Both the position numbers and the translations under genes were made by a program. From a virus, in IMG/VR virus record IMGVR_UViG_3300030329_003387: a stretch of DNA of 64,000 bases; one strand, given 5' to 3'. Below are positions 47,121 to 59,784 of this stretch, in pieces. Numbering within the stretch: position 1 is the stretch's first letter; every line of letters begins with the position of its first letter. The notes beneath the pieces were generated by a model. It did no database searches, had not been told where the DNA came from, and saw only the letters and a program-made list of their open reading frames with translations.

Positions 47121-47247
47121 TTTCACCTTCCAGAATGGCCTTTGCTTTCTGTTTTGCTGGATCTTCAATTGAAAGGTCTTCTGATACGGACTTTTCGACA
47201 CTACCAGTAGCTTTTATGCTCAAATGCATTCCAACTTTATCTGACAT
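47068..47247 (-). CDS. Small hypothetical protein (59 aa, not in ORF track)
   Basis: MSDKVGMHLSIKATG...; AAGGGA RBS; downstream of a TAGTGTATAGT late-promoter variant. Confidence 0.45.
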   Translation of the reverse strand: MSDKVGMHLSIKATGSVEKSVSEDLSIEDPAKQKAKAILEGENEDTKGNDREGSAGDNK

Positions 47248-47333: not shown

Positions 47334-47552
47334 GTGAAGCTAAGCGGTCAGGAACACAAGTATGTTAGGGAAATGTGCAACATACTTAAGGACAATCAAA
47401 TTGCTGACGAATTAACTCGTATTAGATATAGTCTAGGAGAAAAAGACAGGGTCACAATAGATCAGGTTCGTAAATCTCGATACAAGCAGGGTATAGGGAA
47501 GAAACAGGGTCGTGGCAAATGTCAAATAAGGAAGGAAAGTAGTGATGAGTGA
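47334..47552 (+). CDS. Small basic HTH-like hypothetical protein
   Basis: AGGAG RBS, GTG start. Confidence 0.55.
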   Translation: MKLSGQEHKYVREMCNILKDNQIADELTRIRYSLGEKDRVTIDQVRKSRYKQGIGKKQGRGKCQIRKESSDE

Positions 47553-48003
47553 TAAAGATTATGTAGAAATTTATCTTGGTGGTGTTGCGGGCGCTGGAAA
47601 GTTCGCAAAAGTAAGCCCTGAAGATTATCCTATCTTAAATCAGTATAGCTGGCATCTAAATAAGAATGGTTATGCGGTAACGAAGGTTAAGGGGCGATCA
47701 AGATCTATGCATAGAATGGTCACAGGCACTACAAATCCGTATATATTCGTTGACCATGCGGATCAAGACCGTCTTAATAACACTCGCAACAATCTGCGAG
47801 AGATGACTCCTAAAGAAAATGCCAATAACATGAAGTCTAATGTTAAGATTGCGGCGTTTGGCGAAGAAAAGAATATAGCAGAATGGGTAGACGATGATAG
47901 GTGTGAGGTATCTTACGCCGCTTTCTATAATCGTTTGAATAAAGGTATCGAACCAGAAGTCGCAATGAAAAAGAACGGAAGCAAGCGACAAATAGATGCA
48001 TAA
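47542..48003 (+). CDS. HNH homing-type endonuclease
   Basis: MHRMV...VDHADQDRLNNTRNNLR..T..EN motif. Confidence 0.85.
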   Translation: MMSDKDYVEIYLGGVAGAGKFAKVSPEDYPILNQYSWHLNKNGYAVTKVKGRSRSMHRMVTGTTNPYIFVDHADQDRLNNTRNNLREMTPKENANNMKSNVKIAAFGEEKNIAEWVDDDRCEVSYAAFYNRLNKGIEPEVAMKKNGSKRQIDA

Positions 48004-49374: not shown

Positions 49375-49401
49375 TTCTAGATTTTCTATTGACACAGGTG
49401 A

Positions 49402-49455
49402 GGTAAGACAAGCAACCTAGTGCGCCTTCACTGTATCAGGCGTACTAGGTTGCTT
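49402..49455 (+). repeat. GGTAARAC stem-loop element copy 1
   Basis: GGTAAGAC + AAGCAACCTAGTGCGCCT / TCACTGTATC / AGGCGTACTAGGTTGCTT. Confidence 0.85.
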
Positions 49456-49567
49456 AAGGCGCTTAATGAGACTAGTCTCAATAAGGGAATGTCAAGTAAA
49501 ATCTTATGAAAAATCCAAAAAATATACGATTATTTTTTTTGACCTTTTTTAGAAAAAATGTTGGTTG

Positions 49568-49601
49568 AGTGACCTAACGTGTCACGACCATATGCGATAA
49601 T
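49568..49601 (+). promoter_or_regulatory. Palindromic operator-promoter copy a
   Basis: AGTGACCTAACGTGTCAC-N10-GATAAT. Confidence 0.75.
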
Positions 49602-49644
49602 ACTTACATAAGAGATTAAGAAAACGTTTTTCGGAGAAAACAAA

Positions 49645-49860
49645 ATGTCAACTCGTTACCTAGTAGCCAAAGAAGACAATCAGCGAATTATCGCCAACAT
49701 CATTGCAAAGCTCGATGAGCTTTACAAGACCAACCGCACGCTGATTGACCAAGATAGTCAACCGGCTTGGCAAGCCATCGAAGAAAACTGGCAATATATG
49801 CGAGAATTGGAAGCTCGATTAAAAGACAGGAAAAACCCTAAAATTTACAAAGAAATATGA
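49645..49860 (+). CDS. Hypothetical early protein
   Basis: Conserved RBS leader. Confidence 0.7.
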   Translation: MSTRYLVAKEDNQRIIANIIAKLDELYKTNRTLIDQDSQPAWQAIEENWQYMRELEARLKDRKNPKIYKEI

Positions 49861-49864
49861 GCCG

Positions 49865-49898
49865 AGTGACCTAACGTGTCACACCCATAGGCGATACT
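49865..49898 (+). promoter_or_regulatory. Palindromic operator-promoter copy b
   Basis: AGTGACCTAACGTGTCAC-N10-GATACT. Confidence 0.75.
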
Positions 49899-49937
49899 AT
49901 TAGTATAAAAGTTAACCAAGTCATAAGGAGAAAACAT

Positions 49938-50168
49938 ATGACAAATACTGAAACTAAAACCGTTAAAGGCGTTGCTAGCGTTTGGCTCGCCGATTCACTG
50001 GAAACTGTGGAGTATGTCGCCACAGTTGAAACCGACATCGAAGTCGGTGCTGGTGGTGGTCGTTATGTAAACGACACCCGTGTCACATTTGACGAAATCA
50101 CCCTTGACGGTGAAGACGTTGTGAGTTGGGAAGTTGAAGACCAATTACGTAGCGAAGTCGCTGCGTAG
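49938..50168 (+). CDS. Hypothetical acidic early protein
   Basis: AAGGAG RBS. Confidence 0.7.
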   Translation: MTNTETKTVKGVASVWLADSLETVEYVATVETDIEVGAGGGRYVNDTRVTFDEITLDGEDVVSWEVEDQLRSEVAA

Positions 50169-50206
50169 TTGGATACCCCGCTTAATAAATTTTTTGGAGA
50201 AAACAA

Positions 50207-50539
50207 ATGAAACTAGAAACATTCAAGCAGGCCATCGAAGGCCAAAAAACGATTCGCTTAACTCACAAGATGGCACGCGGTGACGGCTATGTCACTGTCA
50301 ACCGCAAGGTTGAAGTGTCTGATTTATCCGTAGGTGAAAGCGGACTAATCGAATACACTTGCTACTTGGCCGGGGTTTGTCGGCACGTTCTGACAAGAGT
50401 GTCAGAGGTTGTCGAAGTCGAACCAGTGGCTAAGCCATTCAACATTCACGAACAATTTGGAATGACTGTTGAAGAATGGAACGCTTCGCAATCGGCTTGG
50501 GATGTGTTGCACGACATGCACGGATTAAGGGGATTCTAA
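50207..50539 (+). CDS. Hypothetical early protein
   Basis: Conserved RBS leader; shared C-terminal module. Confidence 0.7.
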   Translation: MKLETFKQAIEGQKTIRLTHKMARGDGYVTVNRKVEVSDLSVGESGLIEYTCYLAGVCRHVLTRVSEVVEVEPVAKPFNIHEQFGMTVEEWNASQSAWDVLHDMHGLRGF

Positions 50540-50540
50540 A

Positions 50541-50807
50541 ATGATGAAGTACAAAGTTCAAGGTAACGTATTGCCAACGCATATCATGCCGGAAGGTGAG
50601 CATCCCGTAAAGGCTACAGTTATTAGTCAATGGGTAGATGCTGATAACCCACTAGATGCAGCGGCTGAGTTCCTAATGAATAATGGCAAGGTAAACGCTA
50701 GCCCTATCCTAGTGGTAGATACTGATTACAATATCGGCAACTACCCTCTTGACTATGTGAAGATTGCTATAGATTACAGGGTAGGACTTAGAGAATACGA
50801 AAAATAA
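50541..50807 (+). CDS. Hypothetical early protein
   Basis: Coupled to upstream gene. Confidence 0.65.
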   Translation: MMKYKVQGNVLPTHIMPEGEHPVKATVISQWVDADNPLDAAAEFLMNNGKVNASPILVVDTDYNIGNYPLDYVKIAIDYRVGLREYEK

Positions 50808-50857
50808 AATCTGGATTTATTTCTAAAAAATTCTAGATTTGCTATTGACAAGGAAGA

Positions 50858-50911
50858 GGTAAGACGAGGCGCTTGCTTCGCCTTCACCCGTCGCAGGTGA
50901 AGCAAGCGGCT
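50858..50911 (+). repeat. GGTAARAC stem-loop element copy 2
   Basis: GGTAAGACGAGG-CGCTTGCTTCGCCT / TCACCCGTCGC / AGGTGAAGCAAGCG-GCT. Confidence 0.9.
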
Positions 50912-50969
50912 GAGAGGCAAGCAGGCCGAGAGAAAAAAAACGACATTTTTTAGGGAAAATTTGAGAATT

Positions 50970-51182
50970 ATGAATTACCAACCTTATGAAGCAAGAATGG
51001 CTAAGGACACCCCAACCGGCATGCGTTACCTAGTGCGATGCAATCATACAAACAAGTGGGCAATTTGTAGCTGGGTAGGCTCAACCGGCGCAGCAATCGG
51101 CAATCCCGAGTGTCAGGGAAAATACGAATATGTCATGAAAAAATGGCATAAACTTGTAGGAAAGTACGTGTCAGTGACCTAA
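50970..51182 (+). CDS. Hypothetical early protein
   Basis: ORF in track; ATG 50970 taken as start. Confidence 0.55.
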   Translation: MNYQPYEARMAKDTPTGMRYLVRCNHTNKWAICSWVGSTGAAIGNPECQGKYEYVMKKWHKLVGKYVSVT

Positions 51183-51206
51183 CGTGTCACGACCCTAGAC
51201 GATAAT
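51173..51206 (+). promoter_or_regulatory. Palindromic operator-promoter copy c
   Basis: AGTGACCTAACGTGTCAC-N10-GATAAT. Confidence 0.75.
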
Positions 51207-51240
51207 AATCACATAACAAGTAAACGTTTTGGAGAAAACA

Positions 51241-51516
51241 ATGAAGTATTTAGGAATTATCAACGGCTGGAAAGAGACACCAGCAGAATACACAAAGCAC
51301 TTGGCCGAGTGTGGTACTGAGTACGAAACAACCATATGCTATATGGAATATGGTACGAAGATAGACGCCGATGGCAATAGGTACGGAAGTACACCACGCC
51401 AACGCCAAGAGACGCGAAAGCGTTACGACTTAACGGTTAAGAAGTCAGGCACCTACAGCGTTAAGACTGAGGAAACTTGCAACGAGTGCGGTTGTAGTTG
51501 GGAGAGTTGGACATAA
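51241..51516 (+). CDS. Hypothetical early protein (C-terminal CxxC)
   Basis: GGAGAAAACA-ATG. Confidence 0.65.
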   Translation: MKYLGIINGWKETPAEYTKHLAECGTEYETTICYMEYGTKIDADGNRYGSTPRQRQETRKRYDLTVKKSGTYSVKTEETCNECGCSWESWT

Positions 51517-51608
51517 TGATAACTGAAATTATATTGTGCGCTATTGTTACAACTCCGGTGCTGTTTGTGTTGTGGGAAAATAATATTAAGGGGAAAGTAA
51601 ATGTTTAA
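51516..51608 (+). CDS. Small membrane peptide (30 aa), paralogue of 48639..48722
   Basis: MITEIILCAIVTTPVLFVLWENNIKGKVNV. Confidence 0.6.
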   Translation: MITEIILCAIVTTPVLFVLWENNIKGKVNV

Positions 51609-51840
51609 GTTAGAGTTTAAGCCGTTAAATGGTTACATTGTTGGCAAACAGGCAACAGGCAAATCTCAATATGGTTTTGAGTATAGTGTTGTGAAGTCCT
51701 CATTTAGTTATGGTGGTGAGCGTGGTTTGTACGAGTTCGCCGGATATGACGAAGCGGGCGAAATGGTACACGAAAAAGTACACGGCTGGCTGACACTGCA
51801 AGAAGCTACCGACATGGCCGAGAATTGGAAAGGTAAATAA
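51601..51840 (+). CDS. Hypothetical phage protein
   Basis: SVV...SYGG..GLYE...V.GWLT pattern seen in small phage proteins. Confidence 0.65.
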   Translation: MFKLEFKPLNGYIVGKQATGKSQYGFEYSVVKSSFSYGGERGLYEFAGYDEAGEMVHEKVHGWLTLQEATDMAENWKGK

Positions 51841-52017
51841 AATGGTGAAACGAAATTATCACAGATTGAATTATGACCCTTGGGCGTGGAAACCAGTCGC
51901 GCCGGAAACTGCTGAAGAGAAGGCAGACCGTAAACGCCGCGAAGCTATCGCAGCAGAGAAACGAGCAAAGAGGAAAAAATATTGAAAAAATCCTAAAATA
52001 CCTATTGACATAGGTCG

Positions 52018-52071
52018 GGTAGGACGAGGCGCTTAGTTGTCGTTCGCCCGTATCACGACAACTAAGCGGCT
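52018..52071 (+). repeat. GGTAARAC stem-loop element copy 3
   Basis: GGTAGGACGAGG-CGCTTAGTTGTCGT / TCGCCCGTATC / ACGACAACTAAGCG-GCT. Confidence 0.9.
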
Positions 52072-52085
52072 TAAGGAGGACACTC

Positions 52086-52370
52086 ATGACAGATTCACTT
52101 TTCAACGCCGAACTACGCGATTGCGCGCGCATCAACGAAATCGCCCAACAGCGCGTCACACCCGCGCAGGGCGTGCAGTGCGAGTACTGCGGGGAAACCT
52201 CCGCGTGTACGCAGGAGTGCGCCGCTTGTGGCGAACCTCTCGTCGATAACCCGCAAATCCACATGGGCGTGTGTTACGCCGATGCGTGCGGCTGTGGCAA
52301 AGCCGAATACGAAGGCCGACAGGCTCCGTTCGCGTTCATGGCGCACGACGACCCCGATTATTGGGGTTAA
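52086..52370 (+). CDS. Cys-rich (zinc-ribbon-like) hypothetical protein, GC-rich
   Basis: AAGGAGG RBS; CEYC, CAAC and CGC motifs. Confidence 0.7.
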   Translation: MTDSLFNAELRDCARINEIAQQRVTPAQGVQCEYCGETSACTQECAACGEPLVDNPQIHMGVCYADACGCGKAEYEGRQAPFAFMAHDDPDYWG

Positions 52371-52401
52371 GCTCTAAATTCCAGCCCATTAGAGGCCATC
52401 A

Positions 52402-52455
52402 GGTAGGACGAGGCGCTTGCTTCGCCTTCACCCGTCGCAGGTGAAGCAAGCGGCT
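52402..52455 (+). repeat. GGTAARAC stem-loop element copy 4 (near-identical to copy 2)
   Basis: GGTAGGACGAGGCGCTTGCTTCGCCTTCACCCGTCGCAGGTGAAGCAAGCGGCT. Confidence 0.9.
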
Positions 52456-52534
52456 GAGGGAGAACAAGGGAGGATAAGCTCCACGAACGCTGTGGTCGCT
52501 CCAGTTCCCCTAATTTAACATCGGAGAAAACAAG

Positions 52535-52723
52535 ATGAGCTACAAAGTAGAATTAAACCTTAGAGAACTTATTTGTGTTGAGCAAGCTATTGAGGATCGC
52601 ATCGAGCGATGCGAAACACGCATTGCAAAGTGCAATGAGTTAGGCATGGCGTCCGCCTCCGCTGAATGGCAAGAGCGGATAAACGCCGCCAAAGCCGTGT
52701 TAAAAATTGTCAAGAATTCTTGA
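52535..52723 (+). CDS. Hypothetical early protein
   Basis: GGAGAAAACAAG-ATG. Confidence 0.65.
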   Translation: MSYKVELNLRELICVEQAIEDRIERCETRIAKCNELGMASASAEWQERINAAKAVLKIVKNS

Positions 52724-52746
52724 TTTTGGCGAAAAAAATAAGACCG

Positions 52747-52780
52747 AGTGACCTAACGTGTCACACCGATAGCTGATAAT
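52747..52780 (+). promoter_or_regulatory. Palindromic operator-promoter copy d
   Basis: AGTGACCTAACGTGTCAC-N10-GATAAT. Confidence 0.75.
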
Positions 52781-52845
52781 AGTAATATCAAAAGGCAATA
52801 TTCAACTGGGGTAACCGACAGCACCCTAATACGAAAGGTAACAAA

Positions 52846-52965
52846 ATGGACAATGTTTTAGAGATGGAGTGGATGGAGTGGCTTGCTATAGTTGAGGCTT
52901 TTGACTCACAAACCAAGCAGGTTTTTAATGAGTGCGACGAATTAGAAGAAGAATTGGAGAAGTAA
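52846..52965 (+). CDS. Small acidic peptide (39 aa)
   Basis: GAAAGGT RBS; stop overlaps next ATG. Confidence 0.45.
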   Translation: MDNVLEMEWMEWLAIVEAFDSQTKQVFNECDELEEELEK

Positions 52966-53258
52966 TGGAAATTTTATTTTCACATATCACTGACGAATTA
53001 AAAGCCGGTTGGATCGAAACCGATAGATATGCAAATGGTAATCTTAGAGTTCAGCTAAACACGGCAGAAGAACCATACGCGACACTATCAACCAACATTG
53101 CCGGAATTTGGTTAGAGAAGGATTGTTTTATCGCCAAGACCTATAGCGAGAACGAAGGACTAAACGAGCAGTTTATTGAGAGCGGTTTGTTTGAGGATAC
53201 CGGCGAAAAGGTTGCAGCGGGTTTTGTAACATGTCCAATATTGAGGTTCAAAGGGTAA
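52965..53258 (+). CDS. DUF4313-like protein
   Basis: Y.NGNL.VQL...EPYATLSTN...FIESGL..DTG....GFVTCP pattern. Confidence 0.55.
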   Translation: MEILFSHITDELKAGWIETDRYANGNLRVQLNTAEEPYATLSTNIAGIWLEKDCFIAKTYSENEGLNEQFIESGLFEDTGEKVAAGFVTCPILRFKG

Positions 53259-53260
53259 CA

Positions 53261-53539
53261 ATGAGTAATAAGCAATTAACTAGAAAAGTTAAAGACCACC
53301 GAGGAAATGAACACGAAGTTTATAAGTGGTACTGGATGAAGGGCTGGGAATTTTACCAGACAGAGCCGAGTGACGAGTTCGGCGTTACATTTGGATATAT
53401 GACAAACTGCCCTTGCCCTGAGTGGGGAAGTCAGCACGAAGCCGAGTTAGATGATATTTCCTCTGTGACTGCTGAGAGATTTGATTTATGGGAATTAGCT
53501 CCGCCGCAAGGTTGGGAGTGGTTAGAAAAGGAGAATTGA
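53261..53539 (+). CDS. DUF2958-like hypothetical protein
   Basis: WEFYQTE...FGYM...PEWG....EL pattern. Confidence 0.45.
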   Translation: MSNKQLTRKVKDHRGNEHEVYKWYWMKGWEFYQTEPSDEFGVTFGYMTNCPCPEWGSQHEAELDDISSVTAERFDLWELAPPQGWEWLEKEN

Positions 53540-53540
53540 G

Positions 53541-53696
53541 ATGCAAGAATATTTTGAATACCTAGCTGAGTTACAAGCTAGCGGAACCATGAATATGATG
53601 TGGGCGCCGACTATGTTACAAGCTGATTTTGACCTAGAGAAAAAGGAGGCTCGTGAAATATTCAGTAAGTGGTGCGACTCATTGAAAAACGAGTAG
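53541..53696 (+). CDS. Small conserved phage protein (51 aa)
   Basis: YFEYL.ELQASGTMNM..AP..L...F.....EAREIF..W; AAGGAG RBS. Confidence 0.6.
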   Translation: MQEYFEYLAELQASGTMNMMWAPTMLQADFDLEKKEAREIFSKWCDSLKNE

Positions 53697-53711
53697 TGCC
53701 AAGCTCGTGAT

Positions 53712-53765
53712 ACCCCTGTCGCCGCTCTGTAACTGTTCCTTTTCCTTGGCGGCAGGGGTTTATTT
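53712..53765 (+). terminator. Large-loop hairpin/terminator H1
   Basis: ACCCCTGTCGCC / 24-nt loop / GGCGGCAGGGGT + TTATTT. Confidence 0.55.
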
Positions 53766-53767
53766 CA

Positions 53768-53821
53768 GGTAAGACGAGGCGCGTTGTTGGCGTTCACTGT
53801 ATCACGGCAACAACGCGGCTC
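53768..53821 (+). repeat. GGTAARAC stem-loop element copy 5
   Basis: GGTAAGACGAGG-CGCGTTGTTGGCGT / TCACTGTATC / ACGGCAACAACGCG-GCTC. Confidence 0.9.
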
Positions 53822-53834
53822 AAGGAGAAAGCAA

Positions 53835-54005
53835 GTGAGTAAGCGAAAGAAGACAAGCTGGAAAGTAGTCATCAAGCAGGATGACCTCAAGGTATCAATC
53901 GGCCATACGGCACACACAACCGGCACTGGTATACATGATAGCCGACCACGCCGACAGCGTACACGGTCAGCACAAAAAAATCGAGCAATTAGGGAATTTT
54001 TCTAA
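53835..54005 (+). CDS. Small basic His/Arg-rich protein
   Basis: AAGGAG RBS + GTG; GH..H..G.GIHD.R.RR.RTR. Confidence 0.6.
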   Translation: MSKRKKTSWKVVIKQDDLKVSIGHTAHTTGTGIHDSRPRRQRTRSAQKNRAIREFF

Positions 54006-54013
54006 ATAATTCC

Positions 54014-54042
54014 TTGTCAGTGTCCGATATATAAACTATAAT
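54014..54042 (+). promoter_or_regulatory. Early promoter with CCGAT spacer motif
   Basis: TTGTCA-17-TATAAT. Confidence 0.7.
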
Positions 54043-54068
54043 CAGGTATCTTAGTTAGGGAGAATACA

Positions 54069-54263
54069 ATGGATACAATACACTACAGAAACGGCGAGCG
54101 TATGGTGAGATGTAAGTTCACTAAGGATATTTCTTTGCCGATGTCAAACAGGGACAAGAAAGTCCTAGACCCAGATAGAGATAAGCGTATAGCTTTATAC
54201 TCTGCCAGACAGGACGCAGGCTTAGATATATTCACTGGTTGGTTTAAGGAGGAAGCAGCGTGA
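54069..54263 (+). CDS. Hypothetical early protein
   Basis: GGGAG RBS. Confidence 0.65.
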   Translation: MDTIHYRNGERMVRCKFTKDISLPMSNRDKKVLDPDRDKRIALYSARQDAGLDIFTGWFKEEAA

Positions 54264-54415
54264 TAGATAAGTTTATAGATTTCCGTAAGGAATATGGCAT
54301 TGTTGGATTTATGTTCATGGGTGGTTTATTTACATTTTGTGGTTGGTGGTATATCAAGGAACTAATAGAAGTATTGACGAAATAACTGTGTTGCCCAACG
54401 TAGGGTAACAAACGG

Positions 54416-54464
54416 GAACCGCCTACGTCGTGCTAACTCTCTCCACGACGTAGGCAGTTCTTTT
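54416..54464 (+). terminator. Hairpin/terminator H2
   Basis: GAACCGCCTACGTCGTG / CTAACTCTCTC / CACGACGTAGGCAGTTC + TTTT. Confidence 0.6.
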
Positions 54465-54656
54465 CTAAAAAAGGAGGAAGATTATGATTATGAAAGTTAT
54501 AAGTAAAGACCATACAGACGAACAGCTAAAAGAAGATATGGCTGATTTGCTTGTACTGCACAAACATGCAATGGAAACTGAAATGATGTGGCAATTCTTT
54601 GGTGGAGTTATCACATTAGACAATGGCAATAAGTATCAAGTAGCGGAGTTTGAATA

Positions 54657-54830
54657 ATGAAAGTAGAAACACACGAACAATTACGGGCTTCGATGCTTTG
54701 CATCATAGCATTTACATTAGGATGTATAGTCGTATTTTGCAGTGGGTGTAAAGCCGGACTGCAAACTAAGGTAGGTATGTTTGGCGAAGAATATAGTTCT
54801 GGAATTGGCGTATATACAGATAAAGAATAG
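54657..54830 (+). CDS. Small putative lipoprotein
   Basis: Hydrophobic N-terminal segment ending FCSGC (lipobox-like). Confidence 0.4.
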   Translation: MKVETHEQLRASMLCIIAFTLGCIVVFCSGCKAGLQTKVGMFGEEYSSGIGVYTDKE

Positions 54831-54841
54831 ACTTCCTCCGT

Positions 54842-54892
54842 CCCTGTCGGTAGCACTACAACATCACGTTGCCCGCCTCGCTACCGGCAGGG
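54842..54892 (+). other. Large-loop hairpin H3
   Basis: CCCTGTCGGTAGC / 25-nt loop / GCTACCGGCAGGG. Confidence 0.55.
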
Positions 54893-54902
54893 GCTTCCTT
54901 TA

Positions 54903-54957
54903 GGTAAAACGAGGTGCTTACAACGCCTTCGCCCGTCTCAGGCGTTGTAAGCAGCTC
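54903..54957 (+). repeat. GGTAARAC stem-loop element copy 6
   Basis: GGTAAAACGAGG-TGCTTACAACGCCT / TCGCCCGTCTC / AGGCGTTGTAAGCA-GCTC. Confidence 0.9.
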
Positions 54958-55079
54958 AAGCAGAAAGCGAGTGAGAACGAGACCGATGGGCGACTAGAGC
55001 GGTGGGGCAGAAGCCCAGTATTCAGCAGGTGAAATCCGCACCCATATAGAATTTTTTCAAAATAATTGAAGTCAGGGGC

Positions 55080-55107
55080 TTGTAAAGTCCGATATATATA
55101 GTAGACT
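55080..55107 (+). promoter_or_regulatory. Early promoter with CCGAT spacer motif
   Basis: TTGTAA-16-TAGACT. Confidence 0.55.
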
Positions 55108-55146
55108 GGTAGTGTAGTTAGTTAGTTAGTTTTTTAGGAGAAAGCA

Positions 55147-55446
55147 ATGGAAATTTGCAAATCAACCAAAACCGTTTTGAAGTTCACCAACGAGTCAAGC
55201 GTTAGCACCTACAGCCGTACTTGGTCGAACGTAATCGAAGTAGATTTTTCTGAGGGTTTGAGCGGTGTCGAGAATCGGTATGAACTTGAGATGCCGATTG
55301 AAAAGGCTGAGTGGTTACTTGAGTCACTGACCGAGACAATCAACAGCTTCAAGGAAACCAAAGCCGCAGAGCGTGCCAAAAAAGAAGCCGCAGAGAAACA
55401 GGCGGCGGATTCGCTTGACGGTGAAACTGAAAATTCTTCAGATTAG
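55147..55446 (+). CDS. Hypothetical early protein
   Basis: AGGAG RBS. Confidence 0.7.
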   Translation: MEICKSTKTVLKFTNESSVSTYSRTWSNVIEVDFSEGLSGVENRYELEMPIEKAEWLLESLTETINSFKETKAAERAKKEAAEKQAADSLDGETENSSD

Positions 55447-55499
55447 GTTGTTGACAGTGTTGTATAGTGTGGTAAATTGTAAGTAAAGGAGAAAACATT

Positions 55500-55853
55500 A
55501 TGTTGAAAACAGGACAAAAAGTTAGGTTTCATTACCTAAAACAGTTCAAGGATGAACTAAAAAGTGGTCAAGTCCTAACGGATTACGCCACTACGTCAGA
55601 GTCCTACTCTGGCAAAGTCGTAGATGTTCGTAACATCGTTGACCATCCCGTCTCTAACGAGACTATCCGCAGGGATAACATCAAAGGCCGTAGGTCTGAG
55701 ATGTTGTACACTGTCGAGTTGGATGGTGATGATGGTGTGAAAGCCTTCTACGACGGTCGAATGGTTGGCACGGAAGTGCTACCTGAGACTAAACGAGGTG
55801 TCTGGAAATTGATGGCTTCGGCTTTCAAAAGACGGAAACCTCAACCGGCGTAA
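55500..55853 (+). CDS. Hypothetical early protein
   Basis: AAGGAG RBS; TTGACA-16-TAAATT promoter at 55451-55478. Confidence 0.7.
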   Translation: MLKTGQKVRFHYLKQFKDELKSGQVLTDYATTSESYSGKVVDVRNIVDHPVSNETIRRDNIKGRRSEMLYTVELDGDDGVKAFYDGRMVGTEVLPETKRGVWKLMASAFKRRKPQPA

Positions 55854-55961
55854 GCCGGACTTGGTGTCCAGTATAAGCCTTCGTCGCACCTTCGGGTGAC
55901 AGGATTGGTAGGACAATTTAGGATTTATGCGGAGTGGCTACCGCACACCAAATTTTATATC

Positions 55962-56079
55962 GAGAGGTGCCACCGTGAACCTATGGCAATGTAAGGTCGC
56001 AAGACCGGCAATAAGGCGGTGGAGCAGGCATCAAAACCTGTAGCGCGGTTAATCGTGGGTTCGACTCCCACACTTCTCG
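55962..56079 (+). ncRNA. tRNA-like RNA with enlarged D-arm and non-canonical anticodon loop
   Basis: Acceptor GAGAGGT/ACTTCTC; T-arm GTGGG-TTCGACT-CCCAC; internal CCACCG/CGGTGG and GCAGG/CCTGT stems. Confidence 0.6.
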
Positions 56080-56088
56080 CTTTTTATA

Positions 56089-56255
56089 TGGCTTGGCACA
56101 GTAATTGGCGCCGGTTGATAAGCCAGTAGAACGAAAAACGACACGAAGCCGAGGATGCCTTGAGGGGCGGTTAACCAAATCGGTGGATACACCGGAACAG
56201 CTTAGTTCCTGCGTTTTACTGCAATCGGTCAGGGGTGCAAATCCCCTGCGAGTCA
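56089..56255 (+). ncRNA. Second tRNA-like-domain RNA with large internal insert
   Basis: TGGCTTG/CGAGTCA closing stem; T-arm-like CAGGGG-TGCAAAT-CCCCTG; CAGTAA/TTACTG helix. Confidence 0.45.
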
Positions 56256-56333
56256 CTCTTATTCGAGAACGTCGTGGCGGACGATAAAACGCCACTCAAG
56301 TCCTCGACTCAAAACGAGGCTTGTTTTCTCCCG

Positions 56334-56370
56334 CTCCCTATCGGCTGTCTCAGCCGGTAGGGGGTTTTTT
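56334..56370 (+). terminator. Intrinsic terminator ending the ncRNA cluster
   Basis: CTCCCTATCGGCTG-TCT-CAGCCGGTAGGGGG-TTTTTT. Confidence 0.85.
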
Positions 56371-56384
56371 AATGCAGTAAATTA

Positions 56385-56437
56385 GGTAAGACGAGGCGCT
56401 TGATTCGCCTTCACTGTATCAGGTGAATCAAGCGGCT
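56385..56437 (+). repeat. GGTAARAC stem-loop element copy 7
   Basis: GGTAAGACGAGG-CGCTTGATTCGCCT / TCACTGTATC / AGGTGAATCAAGCG-GCT. Confidence 0.9.
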
Positions 56438-56489
56438 GGGAGACAACAGCAAGACAAACAAAACGACGATAATTTTTTCAAGAAAATTA

Positions 56490-56517
56490 TTGCAATAGCC
56501 GATATATATGTTATATT
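56490..56517 (+). promoter_or_regulatory. Early promoter with CCGAT spacer motif
   Basis: TTGCAA-16-TATATT with TG extension. Confidence 0.6.
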
Positions 56518-56539
56518 GGAATTAGTTAGGGAGAAAATT

Positions 56540-57229
56540 ATGACTTGGGTTCATTTAACAAACATATCCGGCAATCGTAAAGTCGGGCCAATTAAAGTTA
56601 CCACTACCGAAAAAAGCTCTTGCCCTAGTGAGTGCGGCATAGCTGATGAATGTTACGCCGGTGGCGGGCCTCTTAATATCCACTGGAACCAAGTGAGTCA
56701 GCACAATCGTGGTGATAATTGGGACGGGTTTGTGAATCGTGTTAAGCGGTTCCGCAAAAACGAATTGTGGCGACATAATCAGGCAGGGGATTTACCGCAA
56801 GATGAAAACGGTAAAATGGACTCCGATAAGTGTGAAGCACTAGCCGACGCCGCTTCCCATACTGACGGTTGGACATATACGCACTATGACCCAACCGACA
56901 CCCATAATAATGCAGTTATTAAAGGGATGAATGAAATTGGTGGCCTAGTGGTAAACTTATCAGCCGATACAGTAGAACAGGCCGACGAATATCACGAATT
57001 AGGTATTGCACCTATTACAGTTGTGTTGCCGGAAGATGCCCCAAACATGGGAAACAAAACGCCAAACGGTTTACCGATTGTAGTTTGTCCGGCTCAGACT
57101 CAGGAAGATATATCTTGCAACATTTGCGAGTTGTGCCAAAAGCGAGACCGTAAAAGTATCGTAGGATTCAAGGCACACGGAACAAAACGCAAAAAGCTAT
57201 CAGAGAAGTTGGTCAGCAATGCGGTATAA
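56540..57229 (+). CDS. Cys-rich gp88-like/DUF7227-like phage protein (possible Fe-S binding)
   Basis: N.KVG, SCP..C....CYA, WRHNQAGD, WTYTH, NLSAD, CPAQ...C..C.LC...VGF.AHG motifs. Confidence 0.65.
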   Translation: MTWVHLTNISGNRKVGPIKVTTTEKSSCPSECGIADECYAGGGPLNIHWNQVSQHNRGDNWDGFVNRVKRFRKNELWRHNQAGDLPQDENGKMDSDKCEALADAASHTDGWTYTHYDPTDTHNNAVIKGMNEIGGLVVNLSADTVEQADEYHELGIAPITVVLPEDAPNMGNKTPNGLPIVVCPAQTQEDISCNICELCQKRDRKSIVGFKAHGTKRKKLSEKLVSNAV

Positions 57230-57677
57230 TTATTTAGAGACGCTAGACCATATGGAATACATACCCGAAACAACGCTAGAAAAAATGGTAACAATAATAG
57301 AGATGAACGGAATAGACAAAAACAAAAAAGTAGAAGTATACTTCAACCTACATAAAAAATGTTGGAGCGTTAGGCAATCAGGCAGGCCGGTTGTACATAC
57401 GGATTTTATAGAACTTAAAGACCCGCAGTTTGTAGTACAGCAAGGCGGCAATGCTAGAGTACGACGGGAAAAGAAAAAGAACGTTCACGCGTTCGTTCGT
57501 GGATACCTGACCGAGCGAGTTGGGATATTTCCCAAAAACCAAAAGCTAGTAACCTATAACCCGTACAAGCATACCAGCTTTGTAGAACGTGGCAGCGAAA
57601 AGCCAATCTGTAGCGCTGAATATGCCGTGCTGGATATCACCGACAAAAAGCCGTTAGTCGAGGCGCTCTGGTTCTAA
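57219..57677 (+). CDS. Conserved phage hypothetical protein
   Basis: VYFNLHKKCWSVR...KNVHAFVRG...YNPYK motifs. Confidence 0.7.
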   Translation: MRYNYLETLDHMEYIPETTLEKMVTIIEMNGIDKNKKVEVYFNLHKKCWSVRQSGRPVVHTDFIELKDPQFVVQQGGNARVRREKKKNVHAFVRGYLTERVGIFPKNQKLVTYNPYKHTSFVERGSEKPICSAEYAVLDITDKKPLVEALWF

Positions 57678-57689
57678 CAATGAGAATAG

Positions 57690-57744
57690 GGTAAGACGAG
57701 CAGCATAGTTACCAGTCTGCGTCTTTCCGTAACTATGCTGCTCG
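57690..57744 (+). repeat. GGTAARAC stem-loop element copy 8 (divergent loop)
   Basis: GGTAAGA-CGAGCAGCATAGTTAC / 16-nt loop / GTAACTATGCTGCTCG (16-bp perfect stem). Confidence 0.75.
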
Positions 57745-57818
57745 CGGAGGGGTAAACGAGGGTCAGTGCTAGTAGTCAAAGATATTTGGAAAAATTGTGA
57801 TATTTTGCTACTGAGTAA

Positions 57819-57847
57819 TTGACGAACCTGCCGATGTACATTATATT
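57819..57847 (+). promoter_or_regulatory. Early promoter with CCGAT spacer motif
   Basis: TTGACG-17-TATATT. Confidence 0.65.
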
Positions 57848-57909
57848 GGAAGTATGTTGAGGGGAGAAAGTTATCCCCGTTAGTTGTTTTTTTTTGAAAG
57901 GGGTCAATC

Positions 57910-58206
57910 ATGACCGACACTCAGAAGGCCGCACCTATCAGTGCGACAGATTTTGTTAAGGCTTACGTCACCACTCATCAATCAGGTGGCACCATTGCTG
58001 ACTTGGCAACTGCACTAAATCGTAGTGTAGATCAAGTCCGTGCAAAGCGGAATTCGATTTCTGCACAGCTTAAAAGTCGTGGGCAATCATTGCCATCTTT
58101 GAAGCGAATGGAACGTGACAGTTCTGCTTATGATGAAGCCGCAAACATTGTGGGCGATTATCTTAGCACTCTTATGGGTGAATCCGATAGTCACGAGCAA
58201 GGCTAG
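57910..58206 (+). CDS. Small HTH-like DNA-binding protein
   Basis: TIADLATALNRSVDQVRAK. Confidence 0.55.
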   Translation: MTDTQKAAPISATDFVKAYVTTHQSGGTIADLATALNRSVDQVRAKRNSISAQLKSRGQSLPSLKRMERDSSAYDEAANIVGDYLSTLMGESDSHEQG

Positions 58207-58214
58207 AAACGTAT

Positions 58215-58246
58215 AAGAGGGGCGGGATTTTTCTCGCCCCCTCTTT
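58215..58246 (+). terminator. Intrinsic terminator
   Basis: AAGAGGGGCGGGA...TCTCGCCCCCTCTTT. Confidence 0.55.
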
Positions 58247-58315
58247 ACACTTCTTCCACTGTCAAGTATATTAGATAGTAGTAAGTATATTGTTGATTTT
58301 TTGAAAGGTGTTGTA

Positions 58316-59560
58316 ATGGATAATTACGAACGAATTATTGGCGCTGGCAACCAAGGCGATTTTGTTCTTGAAAACCAGCAAACTGCCGACAGGGAAGGTT
58401 TCTCTCATGTATCTAAATCTTGGTACGATAAAACCATTTCCTATGATGAAGGCATGGAAGCGTTGGAGTCCGAAGTAGGCCATCGTGAGGACTACTTAGT
58501 ACCTAAATCAGACATTCAGTTTGATGTACAGTTTATTAACGGTAAGCCATCTTTTGGCGTAAGTCTAAACGATGGGTTCTACGTTCCTACCGACCATGCT
58601 TTGACTCAGCTTGTTTCTAAATCCTGCCAAAACAAAGGCACGGGATTTGTAAGATCATTACGTGAAAACGTATTTAACAACAAGGATGAGGTTAAGGTTG
58701 ATCGAGATTTTCAGGACATGACGACGATTCTTTCTATCGTTCGTAATGGATTTCGACGATTACCAACTGATTCTAAGTTTAAGCTACGGTGTTATGATGA
58801 CGGCACAATGCGTGCTTTCCTGTCTGAAAAATACGCCGAAGTTGATAACCGCTGGTATCTTGAACAGATTAAGAATATCGTACCCGCAGGGCGTTTATCG
58901 CACTGGCGTGGCGATGCCGATACAATCTGGGGTAACGTGTTGATTCCTGACACAATCCGTGAAGAGGATGATTCGGACTATGGTGGTATGGTATCGTTGG
59001 CTAATTGTGAAATTGGCAAGCGTGCAATATACTCAATGCCATCGGTGTTTCGAGCTATCTGCATGAACGGCTGTATCTGGGATCAAACCGCCGGTACTAA
59101 AATTCGTGTAGTCCATATGGGTGACATTGATTTGACCGACCTAGCGGTTAAACTCCGAGATAACATCGAAAAGCAAATACCGCTTATCCCGCAGGGTATT
59201 GAACGTCTTTTGGGTATCCGTGCTAAGGGTACAGACGGTGTTGCTATGAAAAATCTCATCGGTGCAACTGCACAGTTTGAGAAGATTGACAAGCGTGGAG
59301 CTACTGCTATACTGGAATCATGGGTTAAGCATGAATCCAAAATAGCACCCGCTGAACGCAGTTTGTTCGATGTCGTCAACAGTGTAACACGGGCTGGTCA
59401 ATTCCTCGACAACCAAAGTTGGGTGAGGTATGATGAGCTTGGTGGACGGCTTGCTAATTACTCTGACAAAAAGTGGGAGTCTCTCAAGAGACGAGCCGCT
59501 GACTTAGAGGAAGCCGACTTTAAGAAAATCTATAGCGGTCAACCTGTACTCTCGGCATAG
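58316..59560 (+). CDS. DUF932-family protein
   Basis: RAFLSEKY..VDN, N.EIG, FRAICMNG, H and SLFDVVNSVT motifs. Confidence 0.75.
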   Translation: MDNYERIIGAGNQGDFVLENQQTADREGFSHVSKSWYDKTISYDEGMEALESEVGHREDYLVPKSDIQFDVQFINGKPSFGVSLNDGFYVPTDHALTQLVSKSCQNKGTGFVRSLRENVFNNKDEVKVDRDFQDMTTILSIVRNGFRRLPTDSKFKLRCYDDGTMRAFLSEKYAEVDNRWYLEQIKNIVPAGRLSHWRGDADTIWGNVLIPDTIREEDDSDYGGMVSLANCEIGKRAIYSMPSVFRAICMNGCIWDQTAGTKIRVVHMGDIDLTDLAVKLRDNIEKQIPLIPQGIERLLGIRAKGTDGVAMKNLIGATAQFEKIDKRGATAILESWVKHESKIAPAERSLFDVVNSVTRAGQFLDNQSWVRYDELGGRLANYSDKKWESLKRRAADLEEADFKKIYSGQPVLSA

Positions 59561-59662
59561 GTTACGATATGGATGGATGATTCGACCTACACATTTTGGG
59601 TAGTAATAATCACTGTAACATTCGTTCTCACGTTTCTCAATGAATCGAAGAACGACTAACCG

Positions 59663-59697
59663 AAGCACCTCGCCGCAAGGCGGGGTGCTTTTTTTTG
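59663..59697 (+). terminator. Intrinsic terminator
   Basis: AAGCACCTCGCC-GCAA-GGCGGGGTGCTT followed by a T-run. Confidence 0.85.
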
Positions 59698-59739
59698 CAA
59701 AAAATATACACAGAGGGCTTGACATAGGGCGACAGATGG

Positions 59740-59784
59740 GGTAAAACGCGCGGCCCTCCCTGTCTCCGCCGAATCGGGCCGCTC
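59740..59784 (+). repeat. GGTAARAC stem-loop element copy 9 (degenerate)
   Basis: GGTAAAACGC-GCGGCCC / 19-nt loop / GGGCCGC-TCG. Confidence 0.5.

What the first reader, a model, noticed from the sequence alone, without database searches (positions are those of the whole stretch)
49402..59784. Nine co-oriented, co-varying stem-loop elements punctuating a small-gene array: candidate undescribed cassette-boundary or RNA-processing system
Seen: nine ~55-nt elements start at 49402, 50858, 52018, 52402, 53768, 54903, 56385, 57690 and 59740, all on the + strand and all intergenic. Each begins GGTA(A/G)(G/A)AC, followed in copies 1-8 by a 14-18-bp stem. Stem sequence differs between copies yet stays self-complementary (GCAACCTAGTGCGCCT, GCTTGCTTCGCCT, GCTTAGTTGTCGT, GCGTTGTTGGCGT, GCTTACAACGCCT, GCTTGATTCGCCT, GCAGCATAGTTAC). 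Seven copies share the loop TCRC(C)YGTMKC, and six keep a G.G mismatch at the stem base. Wobbles in copies 1, 2, 4 and 7 are G.T on the + strand, which favours folding of the + strand. Several copies follow a terminator or hairpin (5, 6, 7, 9) and several precede a promoter (1, 6, 7, 8). Inference: structure, leader and loop are under selection while the stem is free to vary. This fits a protein-recognised site: (i) an attC/REP-like ssDNA recombination site that shuffles small-gene cassettes, (ii) an RNA processing or stabilising site like the RNase III sites in T7/SPO1 early regions, or (iii) an array of small RNAs or protein sponges. No cognate integrase, HUH transposase or RT is visible in this window.
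Basis: partly seen in the sequence, partly recalled or inferred. Interest (0 to 1): 0.9.

Follow-up and report, generated by a model that had tools for sequence, protein, structure and literature searches.

The report
Hairpin leader elements heading phage gene cassettes
A previously undescribed, strongly covarying ~64-nt hairpin element sits in front of small early-gene cassettes in a whole clade of uncultured marine phages, and it marks the points where those cassettes are swapped between relatives.

Summary
Eight strong copies and one degenerate copy lie at the stated coordinates, all on the + strand. The element is not a local oddity: a pattern scan and a covariance model found at least 238 copies in 113 marine metagenome contigs, 1 to 9 per contig, never on both strands of one contig. 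It has no Rfam match, is absent from GenBank phages, and is absent from 185,579 species genomes apart from one 1.9-kb contig in a marine MAG bin.

Its anatomy is fixed: an invariant unpaired leader (TNRGGTARNAC), an 18-position helix whose sequence varies freely but stays paired (13 of 17 pairs compensatory), a conserved 10-11-nt loop and a purine-rich tail. The tail is the Shine-Dalgarno of the next ORF in about a quarter of copies. G.T outnumbers A.C 100 to 20, so the sense strand folds.

The helix variant travels with the downstream gene, and linkage flips inside the leader. Close relatives carry the same cassettes in a different order, with junctions at the elements.

It fails the attC, REP, PeSL, nut and terminator membership tests. 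My best reading is a protein-recognised RNA punctuation or leader signal of early transcripts that doubles as a recombination junction. RNA versus single-stranded DNA is not settled. Other notes of this scan cover the same stretch of this window.

The parts
49402..49465 (+). element copy 1 (leader, 18-bp helix, loop, tail)
   Evidence: CM R1 72.9 bits; fold -31.2 kcal/mol, z -5.1
50858..50922 (+). element copy 2
   Evidence: 76.0 bits. Positional orthologue present in relative G001.
52018..52082 (+). element copy 3; its tail is the SD of the GC-rich gene
   Evidence: 80.8 bits; ATG 14 nt after the helix
52402..52466 (+). element copy 4; identical to copy 2 from position 6 to 57
   Evidence: 80.9 bits; alignment A2
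53768..53831 (+). element copy 5; its tail is the SD of the small basic protein gene
   Evidence: 83.5 bits; GTG 14 nt after the helix
54903..54967 (+). element copy 6
   Evidence: 77.8 bits
56385..56448 (+). element copy 7
   Evidence: 80.2 bits
57690..57753 (+). element copy 8 (divergent loop)
   Evidence: 66.3 bits
59740..59794 (+). element copy 9; degenerate, with leader and loop motif kept but a short stem
   Evidence: 20.7 bits, E 0.031; no significant fold
49389..49394 (+). perfect TTGACA with an A/T-rich run, 7 nt before copy 1, and no -10 at 16-18 nt. The same arrangement occurs at 50845-50850 (copy 2), 52005-52010 (copy 3) and 59719-59724 (copy 9, 15 nt).
   Evidence: Sequence. Family-wide, 46 of 168 distinct copies have TTGACA at exactly 3 or 7 nt.
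53712..53759 (+). terminator-like hairpin plus T-run that ends 2-3 nt before copy 5. Related hairpins lie at 54842-54892 (before copy 6) and 56333-56365 (before copy 7); another terminator lies at 59662-59691 (before copy 9).
   Evidence: At least 27 of 168 copies family-wide have this context.
53835..54005 (+). conserved 56-aa basic protein with an Arg-rich C-terminal helix; first ORF after an element
   Evidence: alignments A4/A5; lies directly after an element in 41 of 46 hits; AF2 helix 39-55, pLDDT 70; no Pfam or PDB match
52086..52370 (+). GC-rich (60%) Cys-rich gene bracketed by copies 3 and 4; a cassette that sits at a different place in a relative about 90% identical
   Evidence: GC 0.604 against 0.42-0.47 for neighbours; order permuted in L090
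54971..54997 (+). 8-codon ORF (M[RK]x[RK]PMxx) that starts 16 nt after the helix of copy 6 and is conserved in 13 related contigs
   Evidence: read from the sequences, coding not shown

Best explanation
The element is a cis-acting signal at the head of early-gene cassettes. It most likely works as RNA in the sense transcripts. A protein, either an endoribonuclease or an RNA-binding factor, reads the invariant single-stranded leader together with the conserved loop. The two are held a fixed 18 base pairs apart by a helix whose sequence is irrelevant. Cleavage or binding there separates the message of each cassette from whatever lies upstream. It also leaves the purine-rich tail, often the Shine-Dalgarno of the next ORF, exposed directly after a stable helix. 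Any gene placed behind the element therefore gets a standard expression context. Because the same short invariant leader recurs 7 to 9 times per genome in one orientation, it also serves as the crossover point at which [element + downstream gene] units are exchanged, moved and deleted between related phages.

Shown here: the fold, its strand, its geometry, its linkage to the downstream gene, the mosaic junctions and the distribution.

Inferred: that the molecule acting is RNA, that a protein reads it, and that the outcome is processing or insulation.
For: Structure under selection: 97.2% of cells paired, 13 of 17 pairs with compensatory change, 0 of 500 shuffles reach this; all of the top mutual-information pairs are helix pairs.

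Sense strand folds: G.T 100 against A.C 20.

Fixed geometry: 18+18-nt arms in 117 of 169 copies, a 10-11-nt loop in 137, and 8 unpaired leader nucleotides in 137.

Leader and loop invariant even in the 60 copies that the fishing pattern did not select.

Tail acts as SD: an ORF starts 12-16 nt after the helix in 34 of the 125 copies where a downstream ORF with an SD was found (168 distinct copies examined).

Context: the element is co-oriented with the flanking ORFs. It is never on both strands within a contig and has a median spacing of 1268 nt. It is confined to the early small-gene region. Copies 3 and 4 lie inside a stretch with no terminator between 51174 and 53712, so they would be intercistronic.

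Unit of inheritance: the helix variant is linked to the downstream flank (AMI 0.52; 246 pairs) more than to the upstream flank (AMI 0.31; 42 pairs). The linkage flips within the leader. Homology ends pile up at the element edges. Cassette order is permuted at the elements between the window and L090 or L130, and there are indels against G001.

No DNA recombinase of the attC or REP type was found in the 97-kb relative.
Against: No RNA data could be obtained, so transcription through the element, and any RNA ends, remain unshown.

Copies 6, 7 and 8 lie between a terminator-like hairpin and a sigma-70-type promoter. They would be transcribed only by read-through.

Twenty-seven percent of copies abut a conserved UP/-35 box with no -10. 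This reading does not explain that.

Host RNase III alone would not need the invariant leader and loop, and no phage RNase III was found in G001.

Everything shown is equally compatible with folding of the + strand as single-stranded DNA.
Confidence: 0.38

Rival explanations
1. A nut-like antitermination site. The leader plays the part of boxA and the hairpin loop that of boxB. The small Arg-rich protein encoded directly after one element per genome plays the part of lambda N. RNA polymerase that has transcribed an element becomes resistant to the terminators that close each cassette, which switches the array from short immediate-early units to long read-through transcripts.
For: The element has a conserved single-stranded box followed by a hairpin with a conserved loop. 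The region is studded with terminator-like hairpins, several of them 2-3 nt before an element. The conserved 51-56-aa basic protein lies immediately after an element in 41 of 46 hits, as N follows nutL. Its model is disordered with an Arg-rich C-terminal helix. The terminator-element-promoter order fits re-loading of read-through polymerase.
Against: The helix has 18 bp and the loop 10-11 nt, unlike boxB, and there is no boxA sequence. Eight sites per genome are far more than any N system uses. More distant homologues of the basic protein occur in phages without the element, one of them behind an ordinary promoter. The fixed SD register is not explained. No binding test was possible.
Confidence: 0.17
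2. A site-specific recombination site acting as single-stranded DNA: a phage-borne, integron-like cassette system of a new kind. The + strand hairpin is the recognition structure. An unidentified enzyme cuts in the invariant leader, so that [hairpin + downstream gene] units are excised and inserted.
For: Structure is conserved but not stem sequence, folding is strand-specific and the orientation is uniform. The conserved single-stranded motif lies next to the hairpin, exactly where linkage flips. Cassette order is permuted among relatives about 90% identical, and a 60%-GC gene is bracketed by two copies. Copies 6-8 lie outside the obvious transcription units. An HNH endonuclease gene, 75-82% identical, is conserved 1.5-2 kb upstream of the array in every contig that reaches that far.
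Against: No tyrosine integrase or Y1/HUH transposase was found in the window's early region or in the 97-kb relative. A GC-rich 10-11-nt loop disfavours cruciform extrusion. The tail is an SD in fixed register, which a DNA site does not need. The conserved loop is unlike attC. Homologous recombination between repeats gives the same mosaic pattern, as shown for PeSLs (PMC2839356). HNH co-occurrence may reflect only shared ancestry of a tight clade.
Confidence: 0.15
3. A promoter plus 5' leader. The leader (TNRGGTARNAC) is a -10-type element read by host polymerase with a phage factor or sigma. Transcription starts at the foot of the helix, so the mRNA begins with a protective 5'-terminal hairpin followed by the SD.
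For: The model explains the sharp 5' boundary, the linkage to the downstream gene, and the position straight after terminators. It also explains the position in tandem with sigma-70 promoters. The basic-protein gene has no other promoter after the 53712 terminator, whereas its homologue in L170 sits behind a normal TTGACA-17-TATAAT promoter. The phage encodes its own sigma, and its late motif GGTGTATAAT shares T..G.GTA..A. with the leader.
Against: The leader never occurs without the hairpin. It lacks the T at -7 of every known -10 class. The adjacent TTGACA boxes sit 3 or 7 nt away, which is incompatible with a -35/-10 pair. A double-stranded promoter does not explain the compensatory changes or the conserved loop. 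No T7-type polymerase was found in G001, and no polymerase-like match was found for the giant tail protein.
Confidence: 0.13
4. A translational operator of an early-gene regulon, in the manner of T4 RegA or coat-protein operators. A repressor binds the hairpin and leader and occludes the adjacent SD, shutting off many early cistrons at once. The basic protein may be the autoregulated repressor.
For: The SD lies immediately 3' of the helix at a fixed 12-16-nt distance to the start codon in 34 copies. The tail is purine-rich in most copies. The basic gene is the commonest first ORF. An 8-codon ORF is conserved after copy-6-type elements.
Against: About half of the copies have no ORF start within 50 nt, and some are followed by a promoter before the next gene. 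Homologues of the basic protein exist without the element.
Confidence: 0.1

Closest known systems
PeSLs (promoter-early stem-loops) of T4-type phages (Arbiol et al. 2010, PMC2839356; Comeau et al. 2014, PMC4122927)
   Same: Both are short repeated regulatory cassettes in the hyperplastic, small-ORF early regions. Both are co-oriented and sit at the insertion, deletion and replacement junctions between close relatives. Recombination between copies shuffles genes.
   Different: A PeSL is a sigma-70 promoter joined to a short terminator stem-loop, with conserved stem ends. This element has no -10. Its helix is 18 bp with freely covarying sequence, is followed by a purine-rich tail rather than a U-run, and carries an invariant leader and loop. 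Terminators and promoters are separate neighbours of it.
RNase III processing sites in T7 and SP82/SPO1 early mRNAs (from my own knowledge: Dunn and Studier 1983; Panganiban and Whiteley 1983)
   Same: Both are co-oriented hairpins of roughly two helical turns that punctuate polycistronic early messages. Both often lie just upstream of a ribosome-binding site, and the copies within a genome are related to each other.
   Different: T7 sites have an internal loop at the scissile bonds and no invariant apical loop or 5' single-stranded box. Here the helix is nearly perfect (one G.G or none), and the leader and loop are the most conserved parts. Cleavage has not been tested.
Lambda nut sites with N protein (from my own knowledge)
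   Same: Both have a single-stranded conserved box followed by a hairpin with a conserved loop. In both, a small basic Arg-rich protein is encoded immediately downstream of one site, and terminators lie downstream.
   Different: boxB is a 5-bp stem with a pentaloop, and there are two sites per genome rather than eight or nine. There is no sequence likeness to boxA. The basic protein family also occurs in phages that lack the element.
Integron attC sites
   Same: Both are structure-conserved, sequence-variable hairpins on one strand, uniformly oriented, that separate small promoterless genes in an array whose order differs between relatives.
   Different: This element has no R''/L''-L'/R' boxes and no extrahelical bases. 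Its length is fixed and its loop conserved. It is linked to the downstream ORF, not the upstream one. No IntI, attI or Pc was found.
REP elements with RAYT transposases
   Same: Both have a GTAG-like tetranucleotide (GGTAG in about a quarter of copies, GGTAA in the rest) 5' of an imperfect palindrome.
   Different: REPs are chromosomal, occur in hundreds of copies in both orientations and often come as BIME pairs. This element is absent from bacterial genomes, has a single orientation, is separated from the helix by four more conserved bases, and has no RAYT nearby.

Membership tests
Rfam 15 families (any) | Score at or above a family's gathering threshold | tested here: not met
   0 matches over the whole window at gathering thresholds, and 0 at E <= 1 over 52380-54990 with permissive filters
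Integron attC | Inverse core and core boxes (RYYYAAC ... GTTRRRY) forming the base of the hairpin | tested here: not met
   The base of the helix is AG(G/C)NGC paired with GCN'GCU. The leader GGTARNAC is unpaired and has no inverted partner.
Integron attC | Extrahelical bases and a variable-length, variable-sequence central part | tested here: not met
   Arms of 18+18 nt in 117 of 169 copies; loop 10-11 nt with invariant bases; only a symmetrical G.G or a C-G pair
Integron attC | The site belongs to the 3' end of the upstream ORF (cassette = ORF + attC) | tested here: not met
   The helix variant is linked to the downstream flank (AMI 0.52) more than to the upstream flank (0.31)
Integron attC | Adjacent IntI tyrosine recombinase with attI and Pc | tested here: not met
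   No PF00589 match in the 97-kb relative G001 and none among the ten window proteins scanned (nine of them early-region). The genome is not complete, so absence is not proven.
REP/BIME with RAYT | Many copies in bacterial chromosomes, in both orientations | tested here: not met
   Scan of 185,579 species genomes gave 11 pattern matches. Only one passes the model, and it lies on a 1.9-kb contig of a marine MAG bin. There is never a mixed strand in 113 contigs.
REP/BIME with RAYT | GTAG immediately 5' of the palindrome, plus a Y1 transposase gene | tested here: not met
   GTAA in 121 and GTAG in 37 of 158 copies, followed by four more bases before the helix. No PF01797 match in G001.
PeSL (T4-type) | Composite of a sigma-70-type promoter and a terminator stem-loop | tested here: not met
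   There is no -10 at 16-18 nt from the TTGACA where one is present. The helix is followed by a purine-rich tail, not a U-run. Definition taken from PMC2839356 and PMC4122927.
PeSL (T4-type) | Lies in plastic small-ORF regions at indel and replacement junctions between close relatives | tested here: met
PeSL (T4-type) | Forms excised mini-circles | not testable with these tools
Lambda-type nut site | boxA consensus followed by a boxB 5-bp stem with a GNRA-like pentaloop | tested here: not met
   18-bp helix, 10-11-nt loop UUCRC(C)NGUMUCA, leader unlike boxA. The boxA and boxB features are recalled from my own knowledge.
Lambda-type nut site | Bound by a small Arg-rich antiterminator encoded just downstream | tested here: inconclusive
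   A candidate protein is adjacent in 41 of 46 hits and has an Arg-rich helix. Homologues occur without the element. Binding is not testable here.
RNase III processing site (T7/SP82 type) | Double-stranded RNA of about two helical turns in an intercistronic position of early mRNA | tested here: met
   17-18 pairs, sense strand, between early ORFs
RNase III processing site (T7/SP82 type) | Cleaved by RNase III | not testable with these tools
   No RNA data are available. No phage-encoded RNase III in G001, so a host enzyme would be required.
Intrinsic terminator | GC-rich hairpin followed directly by a U-run | tested here: not met
   None of the nine copies appears in the terminator scan. The tail consensus is YRRRGRG.
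N4-type hairpin promoter | 5-7-bp stem with a 3-nt loop on the template strand, read by a virion RNA polymerase | tested here: not met
   18-bp helix, 10-11-nt loop; the non-template (sense) strand is the one that folds. No polymerase-like match for the 4354-aa virion protein. N4 features are recalled from my own knowledge.

The most novel reading that the evidence does not exclude
The elements are the recombination sites of a phage-borne, integron-like gene-cassette system that works on folded single-stranded DNA. An as yet unidentified nuclease or recombinase cuts in the invariant leader and moves [hairpin + gene] units within and between phage genomes. The conserved HNH endonuclease at the head of the array is one candidate. 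This would be a cassette-capture platform for phage accessory genes, mechanistically unrelated to IntI/attC.
Probability: 0.13. Interest if true: 0.92.

Novelty: new variant of a known kind. Interest (0 to 1): 0.62.

Why it matters
The element is a large, cleanly covarying nucleic-acid motif family that no database holds. It has at least 238 copies across marine metagenomes from many sites.

It gives a physical handle on how the 'ORFan' early regions of uncultured phages are built. Each small gene or gene pair comes with a standard head-piece, and relatives differ by which units follow which.

If it acts as RNA, it defines a new phage expression signal with an unknown reader protein. It would also be a ready-made insulator or leader part for synthetic biology.

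If it acts as DNA, it would be the first integron-like cassette system in lytic-type phages.

Either way, the covariance model can be used to mark cassette boundaries and to recruit fragmentary metagenome contigs to this phage clade.

Tried and rejected
- **Leader-loop pseudoknot.** AGACG in the leader is complementary to CGUCU in the loop, but the variable positions do not covary (columns 15/51: G-C 66, A-C 31, G-A 30, A-A 13). Rejected.
- **Trans antisense partner.** The window holds no complement of the loop or leader apart from the elements themselves.
- **Leader TAR as the stop codon of the upstream ORF.** There is only a weak excess: 26% of copies have at least 30 open codons in that frame, against 8-11% in the other frames. 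Not pursued.
- **Short GGT duplications just upstream as recombination footprints.** The excess is confined to the TTGACA-N7 class, with no enrichment elsewhere.
- **Sigma-54-type reading** (GG ... GC). By inspection the spacing is one base too long. Dropped.
- **RfaH ops likeness** (GGTAG core). Only 4-5 bases are shared and the comparison is recalled from memory. Not a test.
- **Virion RNA polymerase inside the 4354-aa tape-measure-like protein.** Pfam finds only PhageMin_Tail and there is no PDB sequence match.
- **T7-type RNA polymerase, RNase III, tyrosine integrase and Y1 transposase in relative G001.** None found. G001 is only 64% complete.
- **Close relatives among GenBank phages.** No nucleotide, element or basic-protein match. 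The terminase is at most 24% identical to Bacillus and Microcystis phage terminases.
- **Distant relatives.** The loci fetched through the 419-aa DUF932-like protein (38-43% identical) and L156, L170 and L172 lack the element. L156 has a different repeated hairpin instead.
- **Exact 15-mer scan of viral contigs.** It gave 13 single matches, of which only one contig (G001) is real.

Full report
**What the window is.** The window comes from a large, uncultured tailed phage. The minus strand, from 1 to about 47.2 kb, carries the terminase, tail fibres, a 4354-aa tape-measure-like protein and a sigma factor. From about 47.3 kb the plus strand carries an array of small genes with many promoters and terminators, that is, an early region. 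GenBank phages hold nothing close: the terminase is at most 24% identical to any of them.

**The observation.**
- A covariance model built from copies 1-8 scores those copies at 66-84 bits.
- Copy 9 scores only 20.7 bits. It keeps the leader and the loop motif but has a short stem.
- The model finds nothing else in the 64 kb.
- Copies 1-8 fold as 17-18-bp hairpins, with 12 of 17 pairs compensatory within the window alone.
- Rfam has no match, even at E <= 1.

**The family is large.**
- A relative of about 72% nucleotide identity (G001, 97.6 kb, IMG/VR) has two copies at its end.
- A degenerate pattern found at least 119 marine metagenome contigs from Tara, JGI marine and deep-sea samples, and marine sediment.
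- On these contigs the model gives 198 matches in the first 100 loci, and an HMM gives 238 matches in 113 loci.
- There are 1-9 copies per contig, never on both strands of one contig, with a median spacing of 1268 nt.
- Among 185,579 species genomes only one 1.9-kb contig in a Tara MAG bin carries the element.
- No GenBank phage carries it.
- More distant syntenic relatives (L156, L170, L172, L014-L029) lack it. L156 has an unrelated short hairpin family in equivalent places.

**Anatomy, from 158 distinct copies.**
- The leader runs T at -3, a purine at -1, then GGTA R N AC N AG.
- An 18-position helix follows. A-U and G-C at its foot are invariant, and the next position is G.G in 108 copies and C-G in 50.
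- The loop has 10-11 nt, UUCRC(C)NGUMUCA, with C, GU and CA invariant.
- The 3' foot is GCU.
- The tail is purine-rich, commonly AAGGAG.
- Arms of 18+18 nt occur in 117 of 169 copies.
- Because the contigs were fished with a pattern, I checked the 60 distinct copies that do not fit that pattern. GGTA, AC, AG, loop C and G, and GCT are 60/60, and 94.6% of cells pair.
- On 150 aligned copies 97.2% of cells pair and 13 of 17 pairs show compensatory change. No shuffle and no slid register comes near.
- G.T outnumbers A.C by 100 to 20, so the + strand, which is the sense strand, folds.
- There is no covariation between leader and loop and no trans complement in the window.

**Context.**
- Upstream contexts of 168 distinct copies fall into classes.
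  - A perfect TTGACA with an A/T-rich run lies exactly 3 nt (15 copies) or 7 nt (31 copies) before GGTA. These upstream halves are homologous to the upstream halves of the phage's ordinary TTGACA-17-TATAAT promoters, but no -10 follows.
  - A terminator-like hairpin with an interrupted T-run ends 2-3 nt before the element in at least 27 copies.
  - The rest follow gene ends, tRNA-like 3' ends or a palindrome.
- Downstream, an ORF starts 12-16 nt after the helix in 34 of the 125 copies with an assignable downstream ORF, with the tail as its Shine-Dalgarno.
- One 60-nt leader module after the element precedes at least four different genes.
- In the window, copies 3 and 4 lie within a stretch that has no terminator. 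Copies 5, 6 and 7 directly follow a terminator-like hairpin, and a terminator lies about 50 nt upstream of copy 9. Copies 6, 7 and 8 are followed by a sigma-70-type promoter before the next gene.

**The unit of inheritance.**
- Homology between contigs tends to begin at the 5' edge of an element (168 left ends at -10 to +9). Less often it stops at the 3' edge (92 right ends at +50 to +79). Overall, ends fall within 30 nt of an element twice as often as chance.
- The helix variant goes with the downstream flank (AMI 0.52; 246 pairs share helix and downstream but not upstream). It goes less with the upstream flank (AMI 0.31; 42 pairs).
- Column by column, linkage to the upstream flank gives way to linkage to the downstream flank inside the invariant leader.
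- Concrete cases:
  - G001 lacks copy 1 with its four genes, and lacks copies 3-4 with their genes.
  - In L090, about 90% identical, the [element + 60%-GC gene] unit lies before the block that follows copy 2. In the window it lies after that block. All junctions are at elements.
  - L130 shows yet another order.
- This is the behaviour described for PeSLs in T4-type phages (PMC2839356, PMC4122927). The element itself, however, is neither a promoter nor a terminator.

**A linked gene.**
- The commonest first ORF after an element is a conserved 51-56-aa basic protein with invariant G-H ... H-D-x-R ... R-T-R.
- It lies directly after an element in 41 of 46 hits.
- It has no Pfam or PDB match.
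- It occurs only in metagenomes.
- Its model is disordered with an Arg-rich C-terminal helix (pLDDT 70).
- More distant homologues occur in phages without the element, one of them behind an ordinary promoter. The protein therefore does not depend on the element, although it may use it.

**Interpretation.** Three things are shown: a structure on the sense strand under strong selection, read through its leader and loop at a fixed distance; a tie to the downstream gene and often to its ribosome-binding site; and use as a mosaic junction. I rank the readings as follows.
- First, an RNA punctuation or leader signal read by a protein, giving processing or insulation (0.38).
- A nut-like antitermination site with the basic protein (0.17).
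- A new kind of single-stranded-DNA recombination site (0.15).
- A -10-only promoter with a 5'-terminal hairpin (0.13).
- A translational operator (0.10).

Two things remain unexplained. One is the conserved UP/-35 box, without a -10, that abuts a quarter of the copies. The other is the terminator-element-promoter order of copies 6-8. Both weigh against a purely RNA reading.

No RNA data could be obtained. No recombinase, RNase III or phage RNA polymerase was found in the 97-kb relative, which is only 64% complete.

**Comparison and novelty.** The element fails the defining features of attC, REP, PeSL, nut, intrinsic terminators and N4 hairpin promoters (see the membership table). It shares the geometry and placement of T7- and SP82-type RNase III sites, but their defining property, cleavage, could not be tested. 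I class it as a new variant of a known kind: a repeated regulatory cassette that mediates modular shuffling in phage early regions. It is carried by a new structured motif family, with a modest chance that it is something categorically new.

Noticed in passing
window 53835-54005 (+); homologues P0001-P0050: A family of 49-58-aa basic proteins with invariant G-H...H-D-x-R...R-T-R and an Arg-rich C-terminal helix. It has no Pfam or PDB match and is known only from marine metagenomes. In element-bearing phages it is almost always the first ORF after an element.
   Followed up: partly
window 49569-49585, 49866-49882, 51174-51190, 52748-52764 (+): Four identical copies of a 17-bp motif with inverted 5-bp ends (GTGACCTAACGTGTCAC), each followed about 11 nt later by GATAAT and a gene. 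This looks like a second promoter or operator class. It is also present in the distant relative L156, so it is older than the hairpin element.
   Followed up: partly
window 54014-54042, about 55073-55110, 56490-56517, 57819-57847 (+); L033 17020-17050; L156: The sigma-70-type early promoters share a conserved (G)CCGATAT box in the spacer just after the -35. It recalls the -10 of sigma-28 promoters (GCCGATAA). It may be a regulator site or a dual-sigma promoter.
   Followed up: no
window 55900-56320 (+): A non-coding stretch of about 420 nt holds two tRNA-like T-arm motifs. ARAGORN calls no tRNA or tmRNA and Rfam finds nothing. In other contigs an element follows a tRNA-like 3' end by about 12 nt.
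   Followed up: no
window 54971-54997 (+): An 8-codon ORF follows copy 6 and is conserved as M[RK]x[RK]PMxx-stop in related contigs, with third-position changes. It may be a leader peptide or an RNA motif.
   Followed up: no
window 47542-48003 (+): An HNH_3 endonuclease gene is conserved at 75-82% identity in all 13 other element-bearing contigs that reach this position, 1.5-2 kb upstream of the first element. It was not seen in the loci of relatives that lack the element. Such stable conservation is unusual for a free-standing homing endonuclease.
   Followed up: partly
window 49464-49485 (+); also in G001 (L033 about 18345-18368) and several metagenome contigs: A near-perfect palindrome centred on TGAGACTAGTCTCA lies just after some elements (copy 1) or just before others. 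It may be an operator or a small hairpin.
   Followed up: no
window 18681, 35510, 38767, 41087 (-) and 60077 (+): Exact GGTGTATAAT without a -35 lies upstream of structural genes on the minus strand. One variant lies on the plus strand just after the last element. With the sigma factor gene at 46569-47201 this looks like the late promoter class.
   Followed up: partly
L156 4700-15200: A more distant relative has no copy of this element. It carries 9-10 copies of a different short hairpin (CGTAAGTC, loop, GACTTACG), often after a GC-rich run and before a T-run, in the same inter-unit positions.
   Followed up: partly
window 52086-52370 (+): A Cys-rich 94-aa gene has 60% GC in a 42-47% GC neighbourhood. 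Relatives carry versions with different N-terminal ends and different elements in front.
   Followed up: partly
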